Below are positions 6,001-9,000 of a stretch of 44,716 bases of DNA, piece after piece (the first letter of the stretch is position 1; the number at the start of each line of letters is the position of its first letter). The position numbers were made by a program. This DNA comes from Escherichia coli (lineage in GTDB: Bacteria; Pseudomonadota; Gammaproteobacteria; Enterobacterales; Enterobacteriaceae). The DNA is taken from the NCBI RefSeq assembly GCF_048403405.1, contig NZ_CP183137.1; one strand, given 5' to 3'.

Positions 6001-9000
6001 CATTCTCAATAAAAAACATGGGTGACTCCTTTTTTCTTTTCCGGGCAGGGACGGTCATGCGATAACGTCATCCATCATCACTGCCCTTACCGTCACGCCG
6101 TCTGATAACATCATGCCGTTATCATCATCACCATGATAACAAGCATCCATATAACCACGCCGTTAAATTACCGGAGAGCCGTTTCCGTCAGATCCGACTT
6201 TCCGGAATATCACAACTTTCCGGAAGTGTACCACGCTGAGAAAATCATCATATCGCTGTTTTCCGCCCCTGCGCGGCGCATCACAGGTCAGGGAGATGAC
6301 ACAACATATAGTGTCATCAGCAGCTGAATTCAGCACTACATGTTGTGCTGACGGGAGATGGCGCTGTGCGGAGGGAGAGGAAGATCCGTAACCGCCGGAA
6401 ACCGGATCTGCACGGCGGGAAACGGGCAAATGATATGATAATTAAGCAACACACATAAAATCATATCAGATATGATTTTCATCGTTAAAAATTAAACAAT
6501 ATCTGATATTATCAGAAATCAGGAGCACACAAATCATGCAGGATATGATTTTTACCTGTCAGAACATTATCAGATGGAGCGTGCAGGATGGATCAGGAAA
6601 TGACGTTTTCACTCAGCTATGAACAACTGACCCGGTTTGCGGAAAAACGCATTCGGGAATGCAATCTGGACAGCCAGGGCGCGATTTATCTCTGCGAGTC
6701 AGCCAAAGCCGGAGCCGTGCTGATCTTCTGGCATGAACTGGCCATAAATGGCTATGCCTCAATGAATGCCATAAAGGGGTCAGTTTGGATATCGAAAATT
6801 ATTGGGCACTGTTGCAAAGTTAGCGATGAGGCAGCCTTTTGTCTTATTCAAAGGCCTTACATTTCAAAAACTCTGCTTACCAGGCGCATTTCGCCCAGGG
6901 GATCACCATAATAAAATGCTGAGGCCTGGCCTTTGCGTAGTGCACGCATCACCTCAATACCTTTGATGGTGGCGTAAGCCGTCTTCATGGATTTAAATCC
7001 CAGCGTGGCGTTGATTATCCGTTTCAGTTTGCCATGATCGCATTCAATCACGTTGTTCCGGTACTTAATCTGTCGGTGTTCAACGTCAGACGGGCACCGG
7101 CCTTCGCGTTTGAGCAGAGCAAGCGCGCGACCATAGGCGGGCGCTTTATCCGTGTTGATGAATCGTGGGATCTGCCACTTCTTCACGTTGTTGAGGATTT
7201 TACCCAGAAACCGGTATGCAGCTTTGCTGTTACGACGGGAGGAGAGATAAAAATCGACAGTGCGGCCCCGGCTGTCGACGGCCCGGTACAGATACGCCCA
7301 GCGGCCATTGACCTTCACGTAGGTTTCATCCATGTGCCACGGGCAAAGATCGGAAGGGTTACGCCAGTACCAGCGCAGCCGTTTTTCCATTTCAGGCGCA
7401 TAACGCTGAACCCAGCGGTAAATCGTGGAGTGATCGACATTCACTCCGCGTTCAGCCAGCATCTCCTGCAGCTCACGGTAACTGATGCCGTATTTGCAGT
7501 ACCAGCGTACGGCCCACAGAATGATGTCACGCTGAAAATGCCGGCCTTTGAATGGGTTCATGTGCAGCTCCATCAGCAAAAGGGGATGATAAGTTTATCA
7601 CCACCGACTATTTGCAACAGTGCCGAAAAAACTAAGCTAGGCTGGGGGGCAAGCTTTCAGCTAATGAGATACATGACTGAGCAACTGGATGAAAATGGCA
7701 GGGTTATCGGATTAATGAAGATATAAATGTGACAGGTCAGGTGAATCGTAGTGGTTGTTCAATGCCCCAAGGGCAGTCAGTTAATATGATTCTTCCTCCT
7801 GTCGGTGTGGCTCTGTTGAGAAAAAATGCCGGCCTGAAATTACCCGGCAACACCGGAAGGGCTGCGTTATCCGGCCTCAAGAGCGGGCTGAACAGGTGAG
7901 GGAACAGCTGAACGGCCACGACATAATCCACAACCCCGTTACCTGGACCACAAAACGGGAGAAACGGCGACGGAAACGCTGACACAGCGTGAGCTGGTCG
8001 CGAGGCTGAAACAGCACATCCCGGAGAAGTTTTTTAAGATGGTGAGGTACTTCGGGTTCCTTGCCAACCGGGTGTGTGGAGAAAAGCTGCCGCAGGTGTA
8101 CCGTGCTCTGGGGATGGATAAGCCGGAACCAGTGGCGAAAGTGTGCTATGCACAAATGGTGAAACAGTTCCTGAGTCGTGACCCGTTCGAATGCGTGCTG
8201 TGTGGCGGCCGGATGGTGTACCGCCGGGCCATTGCGGGGCTGAATGTATCAGGGCTGAAGAAAAACGCGCGGGATATCAGTCTGCTGAGGTATATCCCTG
8301 GGTGATGCAGGCTAAGTGCGCCTGCAATCCGGTAAAAGTATAAAAAACGGTCATTAACGGTATAAAAAACGACCGCAGGGGAAGCCCGAAAGCCCTGTTG
8401 TTCCGGAAACACGACTTACTGCACGTGGCATAAGGTGCGGACAACGGCGTTACTTAGTTTTTCAATTTCCTATACGTCAAGGAAACCAGTATGAAAAAAT
8501 CAATCGGTAATCTAAAATTAATGGCTAGCTGGGTTGTTGCTCTGCCGGTATTCGTTGGAGCTGGAGCTCACAGTGTATCTGTGCTCGCCCCAATATTTCT
8601 TCGTCATAATTCACAACTGACACCATACAGCCCCTTTATGGCCACTCTGGTGTTATTCCCCCTTCATTCAATAAAGGGCAATTACAGGTTTTTTGATACC
8701 ACACGCATGGGCATAGCGAGTCAGTGTATCGATGCTGGCTTTAGTGATGTTGTTTTCCAGGCGGGAAATAACCGGAGGTGTAACCCCCATGCGTTCAGCA
8801 ACCTGCGCTTTTGTCAGGTTGTCATGCTTACGCCATTCTGCAAGCAACGCCCTGAGCTTCTCCTTGCGTTCTTCTTCCTGCCATGCAGTACGATATTCCT
8901 CGTCCTTCATCCACTCGTTATGCAGTTCTTTATGGCTTACCAGTTTCATTAAGTACCTCCGCTAACCGCTTTCTGGCGAGATTGATTTCTTTTGCTGGCG

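What the first reader, a model, noticed from the sequence alone, without database searches (positions are those of the whole stretch)
6425..6776. Truncated ORF preceded by a dense array of ATCAGATAT-type palindromes
About 160 bp of AT-rich palindromic repeats (operator- or iteron-like) precede an ORF that is cut after 63 codons by the Tn3-family end. These are the remains of a regulated gene, or a replication/partition site, destroyed by transposon insertion.
Basis: seen in the sequence. Interest (0 to 1): 0.3.

Follow-up and report, generated by a model that had tools for sequence, protein, structure and literature searches.

The report
Orphaned operator of truncated plasmid ydfA
This is the conserved promoter and repressor-binding region of a common plasmid operon of unknown function (ydfA-ydeA); mobile elements have cut ydfA short and removed the likely repressor gene ydeA, which is ordinary plasmid decay, but it points to a widespread regulator that nobody has characterised.

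Summary
Window 6425-6587 is 32% G+C against about 50% in the flanks. It holds three related 17-bp palindromes (ATCATA-N5-TATGAT) and a half-site. The ORF at 6588 is the first 63 of 85 codons of plasmid gene ydfA. It is cut at 6776 by the first 29 bp of a TnEc1-like (Tn3-family) inverted repeat, which IS26 (6805-7624) has itself truncated.

The intact locus is present in more than 4,000 PLSDB plasmids. There ydfA overlaps ydeA (196 aa), and the upstream architecture is conserved even where YdfA identity falls to 38%: the rfsF recombination site, a half-site, then three operators 36-37 bp apart.

YdeA is predicted to have a winged-helix DNA-binding domain of MarR/HxlR type; YdfA is not predicted to bind DNA. 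The same AATCA-N9-TGATT palindrome also precedes distant ydeA homologues that have no ydfA.

Best reading: these are operators for YdeA autorepression of the ydfA promoter. The middle operator overlaps an extended -10 element. In this window the repressor gene is gone, so the site is orphaned.

Iteron, centromere, rfsF-accessory, Fur-box and RNA-leader readings were tested and are not supported. Binding and repression have not been tested. The locus is ordinary; the regulator is uncharacterised.

The parts
6382..6409 (.). Inferred rfsF site for the ResD-type tyrosine recombinase: AGATCCGTAAC-CGCCGG-AAACCGGATCT (11-6-11). It is the left boundary of the ydfA module.
   Evidence: F plasmid has AGATCCGTAAC-TTGGGG-TTTTCGGATCT at the colinear position, and homology between the window and F ends right after the right arm. 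The mosaic break among plasmids falls at window 6392-6394. The right arm CGGATCT is invariant in 13 loci. Literature places rfsF between ydfA and resD in IncI1 plasmids (PMC8004404) and describes rfsF as 10-14-bp inverted repeats with a 6-8-bp spacer (PMC5587640). The exact coordinates are my inference.
6431..6441 (.). Conserved isolated half-site O0, GATATGATAAT. It also reads as TGnTATGAT, a possible alternative extended -10 element.
   Evidence: AT-TGAT is invariant across 13 diverged loci. It lies about 37 bp from the centre of O1.
6457..6479 (.). Operator O1: a perfect 23-bp palindrome, AAAATCATATCAGATATGATTTT (17-bp core 6460-6476).
   Evidence: The arms are invariant in 13 loci while the central 5 nt vary. 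Its left half on the minus strand is a -10-like TATGAT with an upstream TG.
6485..6490 (+). -35-like hexamer TTAAAA of the predicted ydfA promoter. Its TTAA core lies midway between O1 and O2.
   Evidence: Promoter scan. (C/T)TTAA-type sequence is retained at this position in most loci. A BProm-predicted promoter lies 103 bp upstream of ydfA in pUA1135 (PMC12111858).
6496..6512 (.). Operator O2, ACAATATCTGATATTAT, degenerate in the IncI1 form and ATCATATCTGATATGAT in Klebsiella IncF/IncR forms. Its right half is the extended -10 element TGaTATTAT (6504-6512).
   Evidence: The predicted transcription start near 6519 agrees with the predicted start 69 nt upstream of ydfA in PMC12111858. That start is a software prediction, not a mapped site.
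6531..6552 (.). Operator O3, AAATCATGCAGGATATGATTTT (17-bp core 6533-6549), downstream of the predicted transcription start.
6576..6579 (+). Shine-Dalgarno GGAG, within an almost invariant stretch before the ATG.
   Evidence: Alignment A4: ACATnnTCAGAyGGAGnnnGCAGGATG is conserved in all 13 loci.
6588..6776 (+). ydfA remnant: codons 1-63 of 85. The reading frame runs on through foreign DNA to a stop at 6911, giving a 107-aa fusion ORF.
   Evidence: PGAP calls it a pseudogene in pCREC774-3.
6776..6804 (+). First 29 bp of the 38-bp terminal inverted repeat of a TnEc1-like Tn3-family transposon.
   Evidence: Identical to 35421-35449 of the complete repeat. The same stub-IS26 junction occurs in many unrelated plasmids.
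6805..7624 (-). IS26, 820 bp, with its transposase ORF at 6857-7579 on the minus strand.
   Evidence: Terminal repeats GGCACTGTTGCAAA lie at both ends. Annotated as IS26 in L003 and L026.
35421..37844 (-). Reference copy: the complete 38-bp TnEc1-like inverted repeat (35421-35458) and an N-terminally truncated tnpA (35454-37844).
   Evidence: NF033527 Tn3 transposase, E 1e-293, covering profile positions 183-954. 99% identical to annotated TnEc1-family transposase genes.

Best explanation
Window 6425-6587 is the promoter-operator region of the ydfA-ydeA operon, a two-gene cassette on the IncI1 plasmid backbone, immediately next to the rfsF recombination site.

It holds three 17-bp palindromic operators (ATCATA-N5-TATGAT; core AATCA-N9-TGATT) spaced 36-37 bp apart, plus one half-site.

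Proposed mechanism (inferred): dimers of YdeA, the 196-aa product of the second gene, bind these palindromes and repress the operon's own promoter. YdeA is predicted to have a winged-helix DNA-binding domain of MarR/HxlR/PadR type. The right half of O2 is the extended -10 element TGnTAT(T/G)AT, so a bound dimer would block RNA polymerase. O3 lies downstream of the predicted start and O1 upstream of the -35. O1 may also cover a divergent leftward -10.

In this window a TnEc1-like transposon inserted after ydfA codon 63. IS26 then cut the transposon end down to 29 bp. The rest of ydfA, all of ydeA and the neighbouring colicin Ia region were replaced by about 33 kb of mosaic DNA. The operator array is therefore orphaned. 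Unless YdeA comes from another replicon, the promoter should be constitutively on, reading a useless YdfA fusion ORF into IS26.

Shown: the sequence features, the truncation, the conservation, the predicted fold, and the association of the motif with ydeA.
Inferred: that YdeA binds the palindromes, that binding represses transcription, and where transcription starts.
For: 1. Intact locus and truncation: 100% identity to IncI1 plasmid NZ_CP070009.1 up to 6776. There ydfA (85 aa) overlaps ydeA (196 aa). Nothing beyond 6776 of that locus is present in the window.

2. The cassette is a unit: ydfA is followed by an overlapping ydeA homologue in every one of 13 diverged loci, while the upstream neighbour changes (integrase, ccdAB, parDE, arsR and others).

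3. Footprint-like conservation: with YdfA identity down to 38%, the operator arms stay invariant while the central 5 nt and the inter-operator DNA vary. Positions are fixed at -129, -93 and -56, a spacing of 36-37 bp.

4. Promoter overlap: TTAAAA, a 16-bp spacer, then TGaTATTAT, with the -10 inside O2. This matches the published BProm prediction of a promoter at -103 and a start at -69. RT-PCR in pUA1135 shows ydfA, ydeA and ibfA are co-transcribed (PMC12111858).

5. A DNA-binding candidate: the AlphaFold2 model of YdeA has pLDDT 88, with H-H-H-wing followed by a long helix.
   - Foldseek: the top hit is the MftR-operator complex, E 3.6e-4.
   - Sequence: weak profile hits to the MarR recognition helix and wing, E 0.006.

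6. The motif goes with ydeA, not ydfA: distant ydeA homologues that have no ydfA within 1.5-2 kb still carry AATCA-N9-TGATT 45-131 bp upstream. These are L016 (30% identity), L024 (46%) and L025 (54%). All 22 exact matches in 158 kb of fetched DNA lie within 200 bp upstream of the cassette, and none lie elsewhere.
Against: - No binding, repression or transcription-start experiment exists for this region in the searchable literature.
- The promoter is ambiguous. Every half-site TATGAT resembles a -10 hexamer. The scan found 3 promoter-like sites against 1.9 expected in shuffles, which is not an enrichment.
- One natural variant (L004) lacks O2 altogether, so it must use another promoter, perhaps the O0 half-site.
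- The operator arms do not vary among close homologues, so covariation between protein and DNA specificity could not be shown.
- Four of the seven distant loci (five of the seven distinct ydfA-less homologues looked up had usable upstream DNA) show no such palindrome.
- The 36-37-bp spacing puts neighbouring sites on opposite faces of the helix, which is unusual for simple cooperative repression.
- YdfA could still be a co-repressor or an anti-repressor. Its function is unknown.
Confidence: 0.62

Rival explanations
1. The palindromes are operators, but the protein that reads them is YdfA, alone or in a YdfA-YdeA complex, as in antitoxin-type autoregulation where the small first gene product binds DNA.
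For: ydfA is the first, small gene of an overlapping pair, as in many toxin-antitoxin operons. Its invariant N-terminal FSLSYEQ followed by a helix looks superficially like the strand-helix start of a ribbon-helix-helix protein. The half-site spacing of about 11 bp would also fit two ribbon-helix-helix dimers.
Confidence: 0.15
2. The AT-rich array is an accessory or architectural region for ResD-rfsF site-specific recombination, like the accessory arms of cer or psi, and not a transcriptional operator.
For: It starts only about 20 bp from the inferred rfsF right arm (6403-6409). The segment CGGATCTGCnCGGnGGGAAAC next to it is conserved together with the array. A tyrosine recombinase operon lies divergently at 4819-6019.
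Against: F plasmid has a colinear rfsF and ResD but carries pifC and unrelated sequence in place of the array. The array follows ydfA-ydeA into plasmids where the adjacent gene is not an integrase. The palindrome also precedes ydeA homologues with no rfsF-like sequence nearby, as in L016.
Confidence: 0.05
3. The repeats are iterons of a vestigial replication origin, or a partition centromere.
Against: The repeats are dyad-symmetric, not direct. No Rep protein and no partition NTPase belongs to the module, and the plasmid has its own rep region (39902-44716) and ParM and ParA loci. The module occurs on IncI1, IncF, IncR and IncU replicons alike. Natural variants carry one or two sites without losing the genes (L004, L012). 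In F-type plasmids oriV1 lies on the ccdA side of rfsF, not on the ydfA side.
Confidence: 0.03
4. The sites are read by a host factor such as Fur or H-NS, or they act as RNA hairpins or attenuators in a long leader, and no plasmid-encoded repressor is involved.
For: GATAAT- and TGATA-type hexamers recall Fur boxes. In pS88, ydfA transcript was 0.17-fold in iron-chelated LB (p = 0.119; PMC3438092). DNA at 32% G+C is a typical H-NS target. O1 and O3 are followed by runs of T.
Against: The region has no match to the 19-bp Fur consensus within 3 mismatches. The only match in the window lies upstream of the Fiu-like receptor gene. The pS88 change goes the wrong way for Fur repression and is not significant. 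There is no Rfam match. The predicted leader folds no better than shuffles, z = 0.68. The arms are conserved in sequence, and the same sequence recurs three times per locus, which RNA stems do not require. General H-NS coating is not excluded and could coexist with the main reading.
Confidence: 0.08

Closest known systems
MarR / HxlR(DUF24) / PadR-type winged-helix autorepressors with palindromic operators over their own promoters (for example MarR-marO, QsrR, MftR)
   Different: There is no significant sequence membership: Pfam hits are below threshold and the PDB profile E-value is about 0.006. YdeA has an extra beta-rich C-terminal domain (residues 107-190), and some homologues carry 100-230 more residues. 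The regulator is the second gene, behind a small three-helix protein. There are three operators plus a half-site at a 36-37-bp pitch. No ligand or signal is known.
PifC-pifO of F plasmid (autorepressed pif operon next to rfsF)
   Same: It occupies the equivalent position: the first operon to the right of a colinear rfsF site, facing away from the ccd/resD side. The F gene is annotated 'transcriptional repressor PifC'. In R64-type IncI1 plasmids the ydfA-ydeA operon likewise heads phage-exclusion cargo (ibfA; PMC12111858).
   Different: The proteins and the DNA to the right of rfsF are unrelated, and F has no ATCATA-N5-TATGAT sites. Any functional analogy is inference only.
Type II toxin-antitoxin operons with operator arrays (small first gene overlapping a larger second gene)
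   Same: Two overlapping genes, palindromic operators at the promoter, a plasmid maintenance-region context and wide horizontal spread.
   Different: Neither protein matches any toxin or antitoxin family, or any PADLOC model above noise. Here the predicted DNA-binding domain is in the larger second protein. No toxicity data exist.
Recurrent transposon insertions in ydfA of IncI1 plasmids (Tn21-type insertions reported in the literature)
   Same: ydfA is interrupted by a Tn3-family element, leaving a 5' remnant next to rfsF (PMC9412624).
   Different: Here the element is TnEc1-like and survives only as a 29-bp stub cut by IS26. This exact junction was found in a single complete E. coli plasmid, pCREC774-3.

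Membership tests
ydfA (YdfA protein family of IncI1/IncF plasmids) | Sequence identity and colinearity with the intact 85-codon gene, including its conserved upstream region | tested here: met
   Window 6060-6776 is 100% identical to NZ_CP070009.1, and the ORF equals codons 1-63 of WP_000371885.1. Homologues are named YdfA in UniRef and in some annotations.
ydfA (YdfA protein family of IncI1/IncF plasmids) | Complete coding sequence followed by an overlapping ydeA | tested here: not met
   Codons 64-85 and all of ydeA are absent from the window. PGAP marks the remnant as a pseudogene.
Tn3-family transposon end (TnEc1-like) | 38-bp terminal inverted repeat beginning GGGG and ending ACGTTAAG, next to a Tn3-family tnpA | tested here: inconclusive
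   At 6776-6804 only the first 29 bp are present. They are identical to the complete repeat at 35421-35458, which does abut tnpA. No tnpA adjoins the stub, and the sequence right of IS26 is unrelated.
Tn3-family transposon end (TnEc1-like) | 5-bp target-site duplication flanking the element | not testable with these tools
   The other end of this insertion, and the 3' part of ydfA, are not in the window.
IS26 | 820-bp element with 14-bp terminal repeats GGCACTGTTGCAAA and the Tnp26 gene | tested here: met
   Repeats at 6805-6818 and 7611-7624. Transposase ORF at 6857-7579. Annotated as IS26 in identical DNA.
Winged-helix (MarR/HxlR/PadR-like) autorepressor with operator | The cognate protein has a winged helix-turn-helix DNA-binding fold | tested here: met
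Winged-helix (MarR/HxlR/PadR-like) autorepressor with operator | Sequence-level membership of a curated MarR, PadR or HxlR family | tested here: not met
   No Pfam or NCBIfam hit reaches threshold. The best are AbiEi_4 (E 0.046) and PaaX (E 0.094).
Winged-helix (MarR/HxlR/PadR-like) autorepressor with operator | Dyad-symmetric operators overlapping the promoter of the regulator's own operon, conserved with the regulator gene | tested here: met
   The promoter itself is predicted, not mapped.
Winged-helix (MarR/HxlR/PadR-like) autorepressor with operator | Specific binding and repression demonstrated | not testable with these tools
   This needs gel-shift, footprinting and reporter assays. No such data appeared in the literature searches.
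Iteron-type replication origin | Tandem direct repeats next to a cognate rep gene | tested here: not met
   The repeats are palindromic. No rep gene belongs to the module, and the plasmid's rep region is at 39902-44716.
Partition centromere (parS/parC-type) | Repeat array linked to a ParA, ParM or TubZ NTPase and its adaptor | tested here: not met
   The cassette encodes no NTPase. The ParM and ParA loci lie elsewhere and are separate.
rfsF / ResD recombination site | Two roughly 11-bp inverted arms around a 6-bp spacer, colinear with rfsF of F plasmid | tested here: met
   This applies to window 6382-6409 only. The palindrome array at 6425-6587 lies outside that site and is absent from F.
Fur box | Match to the 19-bp consensus GATAATGATAATCATTATC | tested here: not met
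   No match within 3 mismatches in 6425-6587. The only match in the window is at 11556-11574.

The most novel reading that the evidence does not exclude
The array is more than a simple autorepression site. It may be a two-way switch sitting on the rfsF boundary.

- O1 and O2 are placed symmetrically around a shared TTAA -35 core, so they would control back-to-back divergent promoters.
- One promoter drives ydfA-ydeA and whatever cargo follows it. In R64-type plasmids that cargo is the abortive-infection gene ibfA.
- The other promoter would send transcription across rfsF towards the resD operon.
- YdfA, the small three-helix protein, could act as an anti-repressor or sensor for YdeA.

If so, one uncharacterised regulator present in about 6% of sequenced enterobacterial plasmids would couple expression of the variable cargo region, including phage defence, to recombination at the site where that region is exchanged.
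Probability: 0.12. Interest if true: 0.55.

Novelty: new member of a known kind. Interest (0 to 1): 0.3.

Why it matters
For this window the finding is routine. It is a backbone gene remnant at the edge of a roughly 33-kb mosaic built by IS26 and Tn3-family elements. It marks precisely where the IncI1 variable region was replaced.

The wider value is modest but real:
- tblastn finds ydfA in 4,261 of 72,556 PLSDB plasmids (IncI1, IncF, IncR, IncU), and ydeA followed it in every locus examined. The cassette always sits beside rfsF, the site where cargo regions are swapped.
- In R64-type plasmids it heads the transcript that carries the phage-defence gene ibfA.
- Neither protein has a family or a known function.

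The comparative evidence here yields a concrete, testable regulator-operator pair: YdeA and AATCA-N9-TGATT. That could explain how the plasmid's variable region is expressed. It also predicts that truncations like this one leave a derepressed outward-reading promoter at the junction.

Tried and rejected
- YdfA as a ribbon-helix-helix DNA binder. The N-terminal FSLSYEQ plus helix suggested it. Rejected as the leading idea because AlphaFold2 gives a confident three-helix bundle with only generic helical matches, and because the operator persists without ydfA.
- Fur box: no match in the region.
- Known RNA family or structured leader: no Rfam hit, and the leader fold has z = 0.68.
- Iteron or centromere: rejected on repeat symmetry, on the lack of rep or par partner genes, and on the spread of replicon types.
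- rfsF accessory site: rejected on the comparison with F plasmid.
- Family searches (Pfam, NCBIfam, PADLOC, PHROGs) for YdfA, YdeA and the 137-aa ORF upstream of the integrase returned nothing above threshold.
- Covariation between the YdeA recognition helix and the operator arms could not be established. Close homologues share both. Of the distant homologues, three keep the AATCA-N9-TGATT core, one has a different 8-5-8 palindrome (L018), and the others have none.
- Dead ends: the literature search for the QsrR operator was swamped by a chemistry acronym. The afdb50 fold library was unavailable. No contig was on record for P0274. The C-terminal beta domain of YdeA could not be searched on its own.
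Full report
**1. What is in the sequence**

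The segment 6425-6587 is 31.9% G+C, against about 50% on both sides and for the window as a whole. It contains:
- a perfect 23-bp palindrome, AAAATCATATC-A-GATATGATTTT, at 6457-6479;
- two related copies at 6494-6512 and 6531-6552;
- a related half-site at 6431-6441.

Written as ATCATA-N5-TATGAT, sites with at most one mismatch occur twice in the 44.7-kb window, both here, against 0.06 expected. The count of exact half-sites exceeds every one of 2000 shuffles.

The ORF starting at ATG 6588 is preceded by GGAG at 6576-6579. It runs in frame to 6911, but only its first 63 codons are native.

**2. The truncation**

Window 60-6776 is 99.97% identical to an IncI1 plasmid (NZ_CP070009.1, locus L001). 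Nothing to the right of the corresponding point in that plasmid is present in the window. In the intact plasmid the gene has 85 codons (WP_000371885.1), so the window keeps codons 1-63.

At the break the sequence reads GGGGTCAGTTTGGATATCGAAAATTATTG. This is identical to the first 29 bp of a complete 38-bp Tn3-type terminal repeat at 35421-35458, which ends in ACGTTAAG and abuts a Tn3-family tnpA. That tnpA is 99% identical to genes annotated as TnEc1 family.

The stub is cut by IS26 at 6805-7624. The DNA to the right of IS26 is unrelated. The same stub-IS26 junction is common in unrelated plasmids.

The ydfA-stub junction was found in only one complete E. coli replicon, pCREC774-3 from a urine isolate in Taiwan. 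There PGAP also calls the 189 nt a pseudogene missing its C-terminus.

The IncI1 backbone resumes at about 39902 with the rep region. So about 33 kb of mosaic DNA replaces the 3' end of ydfA, ydeA, the DUF6404 gene, the colicin Ia genes (imm, cia), yagA and the ProQ/FinO-family gene that follow in L001.

**3. The gene and its partner**

The 85-aa gene is called ydfA and the next gene ydeA in plasmid nomenclature (PMC12111858, PMC3438092).
- tblastn finds ydfA in 4,261 of 72,556 PLSDB plasmids.
- In 13 loci chosen to span 38-100% YdfA identity (IncI1, IncI-gamma, IncF, IncR, IncU), ydfA is always followed by an overlapping ydeA homologue. The upstream neighbour varies: integrase, ccdAB, parDE, arsR and others.
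- Neither protein belongs to a Pfam, NCBIfam, PADLOC or informative PHROG family.
- The YdeA family is small: 217 cluster representatives out of 1.8 billion.

**4. The upstream region is a conserved regulatory module that starts at rfsF**

Aligning the 200 bp before the ATG in the 13 loci gives a footprint-like pattern:

| Position relative to ATG | Element |
|---|---|
| -185 to -165 | invariant CGGATCTgCnCGgnGgAAA |
| about -157 | half-site aATATGATaat |
| -129 | operator O1 |
| -93 | operator O2 |
| -56 | operator O3 |
| just before ATG | near-invariant ribosome-binding stretch |

The operator arms are invariant while their central 5 nt and the DNA between them vary. Two natural variants (L004, L012) have lost one or two operators through deletions between the repeats.

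BLAST shows a mosaic break among plasmids at window 6392-6394. F plasmid is colinear up to AGATCCGTAAC-TTGGGG-TTTTCGGATCT. It then diverges into the pifC region, which has no such palindromes.

Two papers bear on this. One places rfsF between ydfA and resD in IncI1 plasmids and describes exchange of gene sets at that site (PMC8004404). The other describes rfsF as inverted repeats around a 6-8-bp spacer (PMC5587640). From these I infer that rfsF lies at window 6382-6409. The palindrome array then belongs to the ydfA module to its right, not to the recombination site.

**5. Promoter**

A consensus scan finds TTAAAA (6485-6490), a 16-bp spacer, then TATTAT (6507-6512) preceded by TG. This places an extended -10 inside the right half of O2. 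A mirror-image minus-strand candidate has its -10 in the left half of O1.

The rightward candidate agrees with an independent BProm prediction for IncI1 plasmid pUA1135: a promoter 103 bp upstream of ydfA and a start 69 bp upstream. In the same paper RT-PCR links ydfA, ydeA, ibfA and the next gene into one transcript (PMC12111858).

All of this is prediction. The half-site TATGAT is itself -10-like. The scan count of 3 is not above the shuffled background of 1.9. Variant L004 has no O2, so the O0 half-site (TGaTATGAT) may be an alternative or additional promoter.

**6. Who reads the palindromes**

YdeA:
- AlphaFold2 on a 28-sequence alignment gives pLDDT 88. The model has helix 9-24, helix 31-40, helix 48-60 and a beta wing at 64-78, followed by a long helix at 80-104 and a beta-rich C-terminal domain.
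- Foldseek's best hit is the MftR-operator complex.
- A sequence profile touches the MarR recognition helix and wing only weakly, at E 0.006.

YdfA:
- AlphaFold2 gives pLDDT 88 and a three-helix bundle with only generic helical matches.

Comparative evidence separates the two. I fetched seven loci encoding distant ydeA homologues from metagenome and genome contigs (five distinct proteins; two were seen on two contigs each), plus two further distinct homologues. None has a ydfA homologue within 1.5-2 kb. Three of the homologues (30%, 46% and 54% identity) still carry exact AATCA-N9-TGATT palindromes 45-131 bp upstream.

None lies elsewhere.

Half-sites one helical turn apart suit a winged-helix dimer. 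I therefore assign the operators to YdeA, with moderate confidence. YdfA remains of unknown role; it could be a partner, a co-repressor or an anti-repressor.

**7. Mechanism proposed**

YdeA dimers occupy O1-O3, and perhaps the half-site.
- O2 occludes the -10.
- O3 lies about 14-31 nt downstream of the predicted start.
- O1 lies upstream of the -35.

This gives negative feedback on ydfA-ydeA and on whatever cargo is co-transcribed.

The constant 36-37-bp pitch is about 3.5 helical turns, which puts neighbouring sites on opposite faces of the helix. That is unexplained.

In this window ydeA is deleted. Unless YdeA is supplied in trans, the orphaned promoter should fire constitutively through the 63-codon remnant into the transposon stub and IS26, antisense to the IS26 transposase gene. 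This consequence is an inference.

**8. Rivals**

- YdfA as the binder: disfavoured by the fold prediction and by the ydfA-less loci.
- An rfsF accessory region: disfavoured by the F plasmid comparison.
- Iterons or a centromere: disfavoured by repeat symmetry, the absence of partner genes and the diversity of replicons.
- Fur: the region has no match within 3 mismatches. The only match in the window sits upstream of the Fiu-like receptor gene. The pS88 expression change under iron chelation goes the wrong way and is not significant.
- RNA structure: no Rfam hit, and the leader fold has z = 0.68.
- Non-specific H-NS binding to the AT-rich DNA is not excluded.

**9. Novelty and verdict**

The truncated gene and its junctions are ordinary, and insertions of Tn3-family elements into ydfA are already on record (PMC9412624).

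I found no description of the palindromes, or of YdeA as a regulator, in the searchable literature. The older F and R64 papers could not be read.

The operator-regulator pair is best filed as a new, uncharacterised member of a well-known kind: a winged-helix autorepressor with palindromic operators. Interest is low to moderate.

Noticed in passing
window 6166-6410 (with 6382-6409 as the inferred rfsF core): A separate conserved module lies left of the palindromes. It includes the inverted repeat CACAACATATAGTG...CACTACATGTTGTG, two TTCCGGAA motifs and the 11-6-11 site AGATCCGTAAC-CGCCGG-AAACCGGATCT. It recurs on its own in many IncF plasmids and is colinear with the rfsF/oriV1 region of F plasmid.
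   Followed up: partly
window 5606-6019 (-) and 4819-5757 (-): A 137-aa ORF with no family in any library lies immediately upstream of, and apparently in one operon with, the ResD-like tyrosine recombinase. The pair is conserved in IncI1 and IncI-gamma plasmids.
   Followed up: no
window 33150-35059 (+): A candidate Pycsar-type anti-phage pair. The 177-aa protein matches the PycTM effector (Pfam E 8e-7). The adjacent 455-aa protein has a nucleotide cyclase domain and an AGS_C sensor domain (E 1e-5 and 1e-6). The pair sits between an IS91-family transposase gene and the TnEc1-like end.
   Followed up: no
window 11556-11574: The only Fur-box-like sequence in the window (GCTAATGATAACCATTATT, 3 mismatches) lies about 80 bp upstream of a plasmid-borne Fiu-like catecholate siderophore receptor gene (11652-13970). 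That gene is followed by ybiX-like and ompW-like genes about 93% identical to Klebsiella DNA.
   Followed up: no
window 16043-30255 (-): A 1369-aa autotransporter gene and a K88-type fimbrial cluster (a K88-type fimbrial subunit gene at 20191-21060 and the usher at 27452-29788), carried inside the mosaic that replaced the IncI1 variable region.
   Followed up: no
window 6776-6803 and 35421-35448: The TnEc1-like repeat stub and the complete repeat are in the same orientation, about 28.6 kb apart. The DNA right of IS26 does not continue the repeat. The present arrangement therefore needs more than one insertion, or an IS26-mediated rearrangement. The history was not reconstructed.
   Followed up: partly
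window 8668-9271 (-): A Gp49/HigB-like toxin gene (113 aa) overlaps an HTH_3 antitoxin gene (93 aa). This is a type II toxin-antitoxin pair just right of IS26.
   Followed up: no
L004 1301-1500 and L012 1301-1500: Natural variants of the ydfA upstream region carry one or two operators instead of three. They apparently arose by deletions of about 73 bp or 36 bp between the repeated operators. They could serve as natural experiments on what operator number does.
   Followed up: partly
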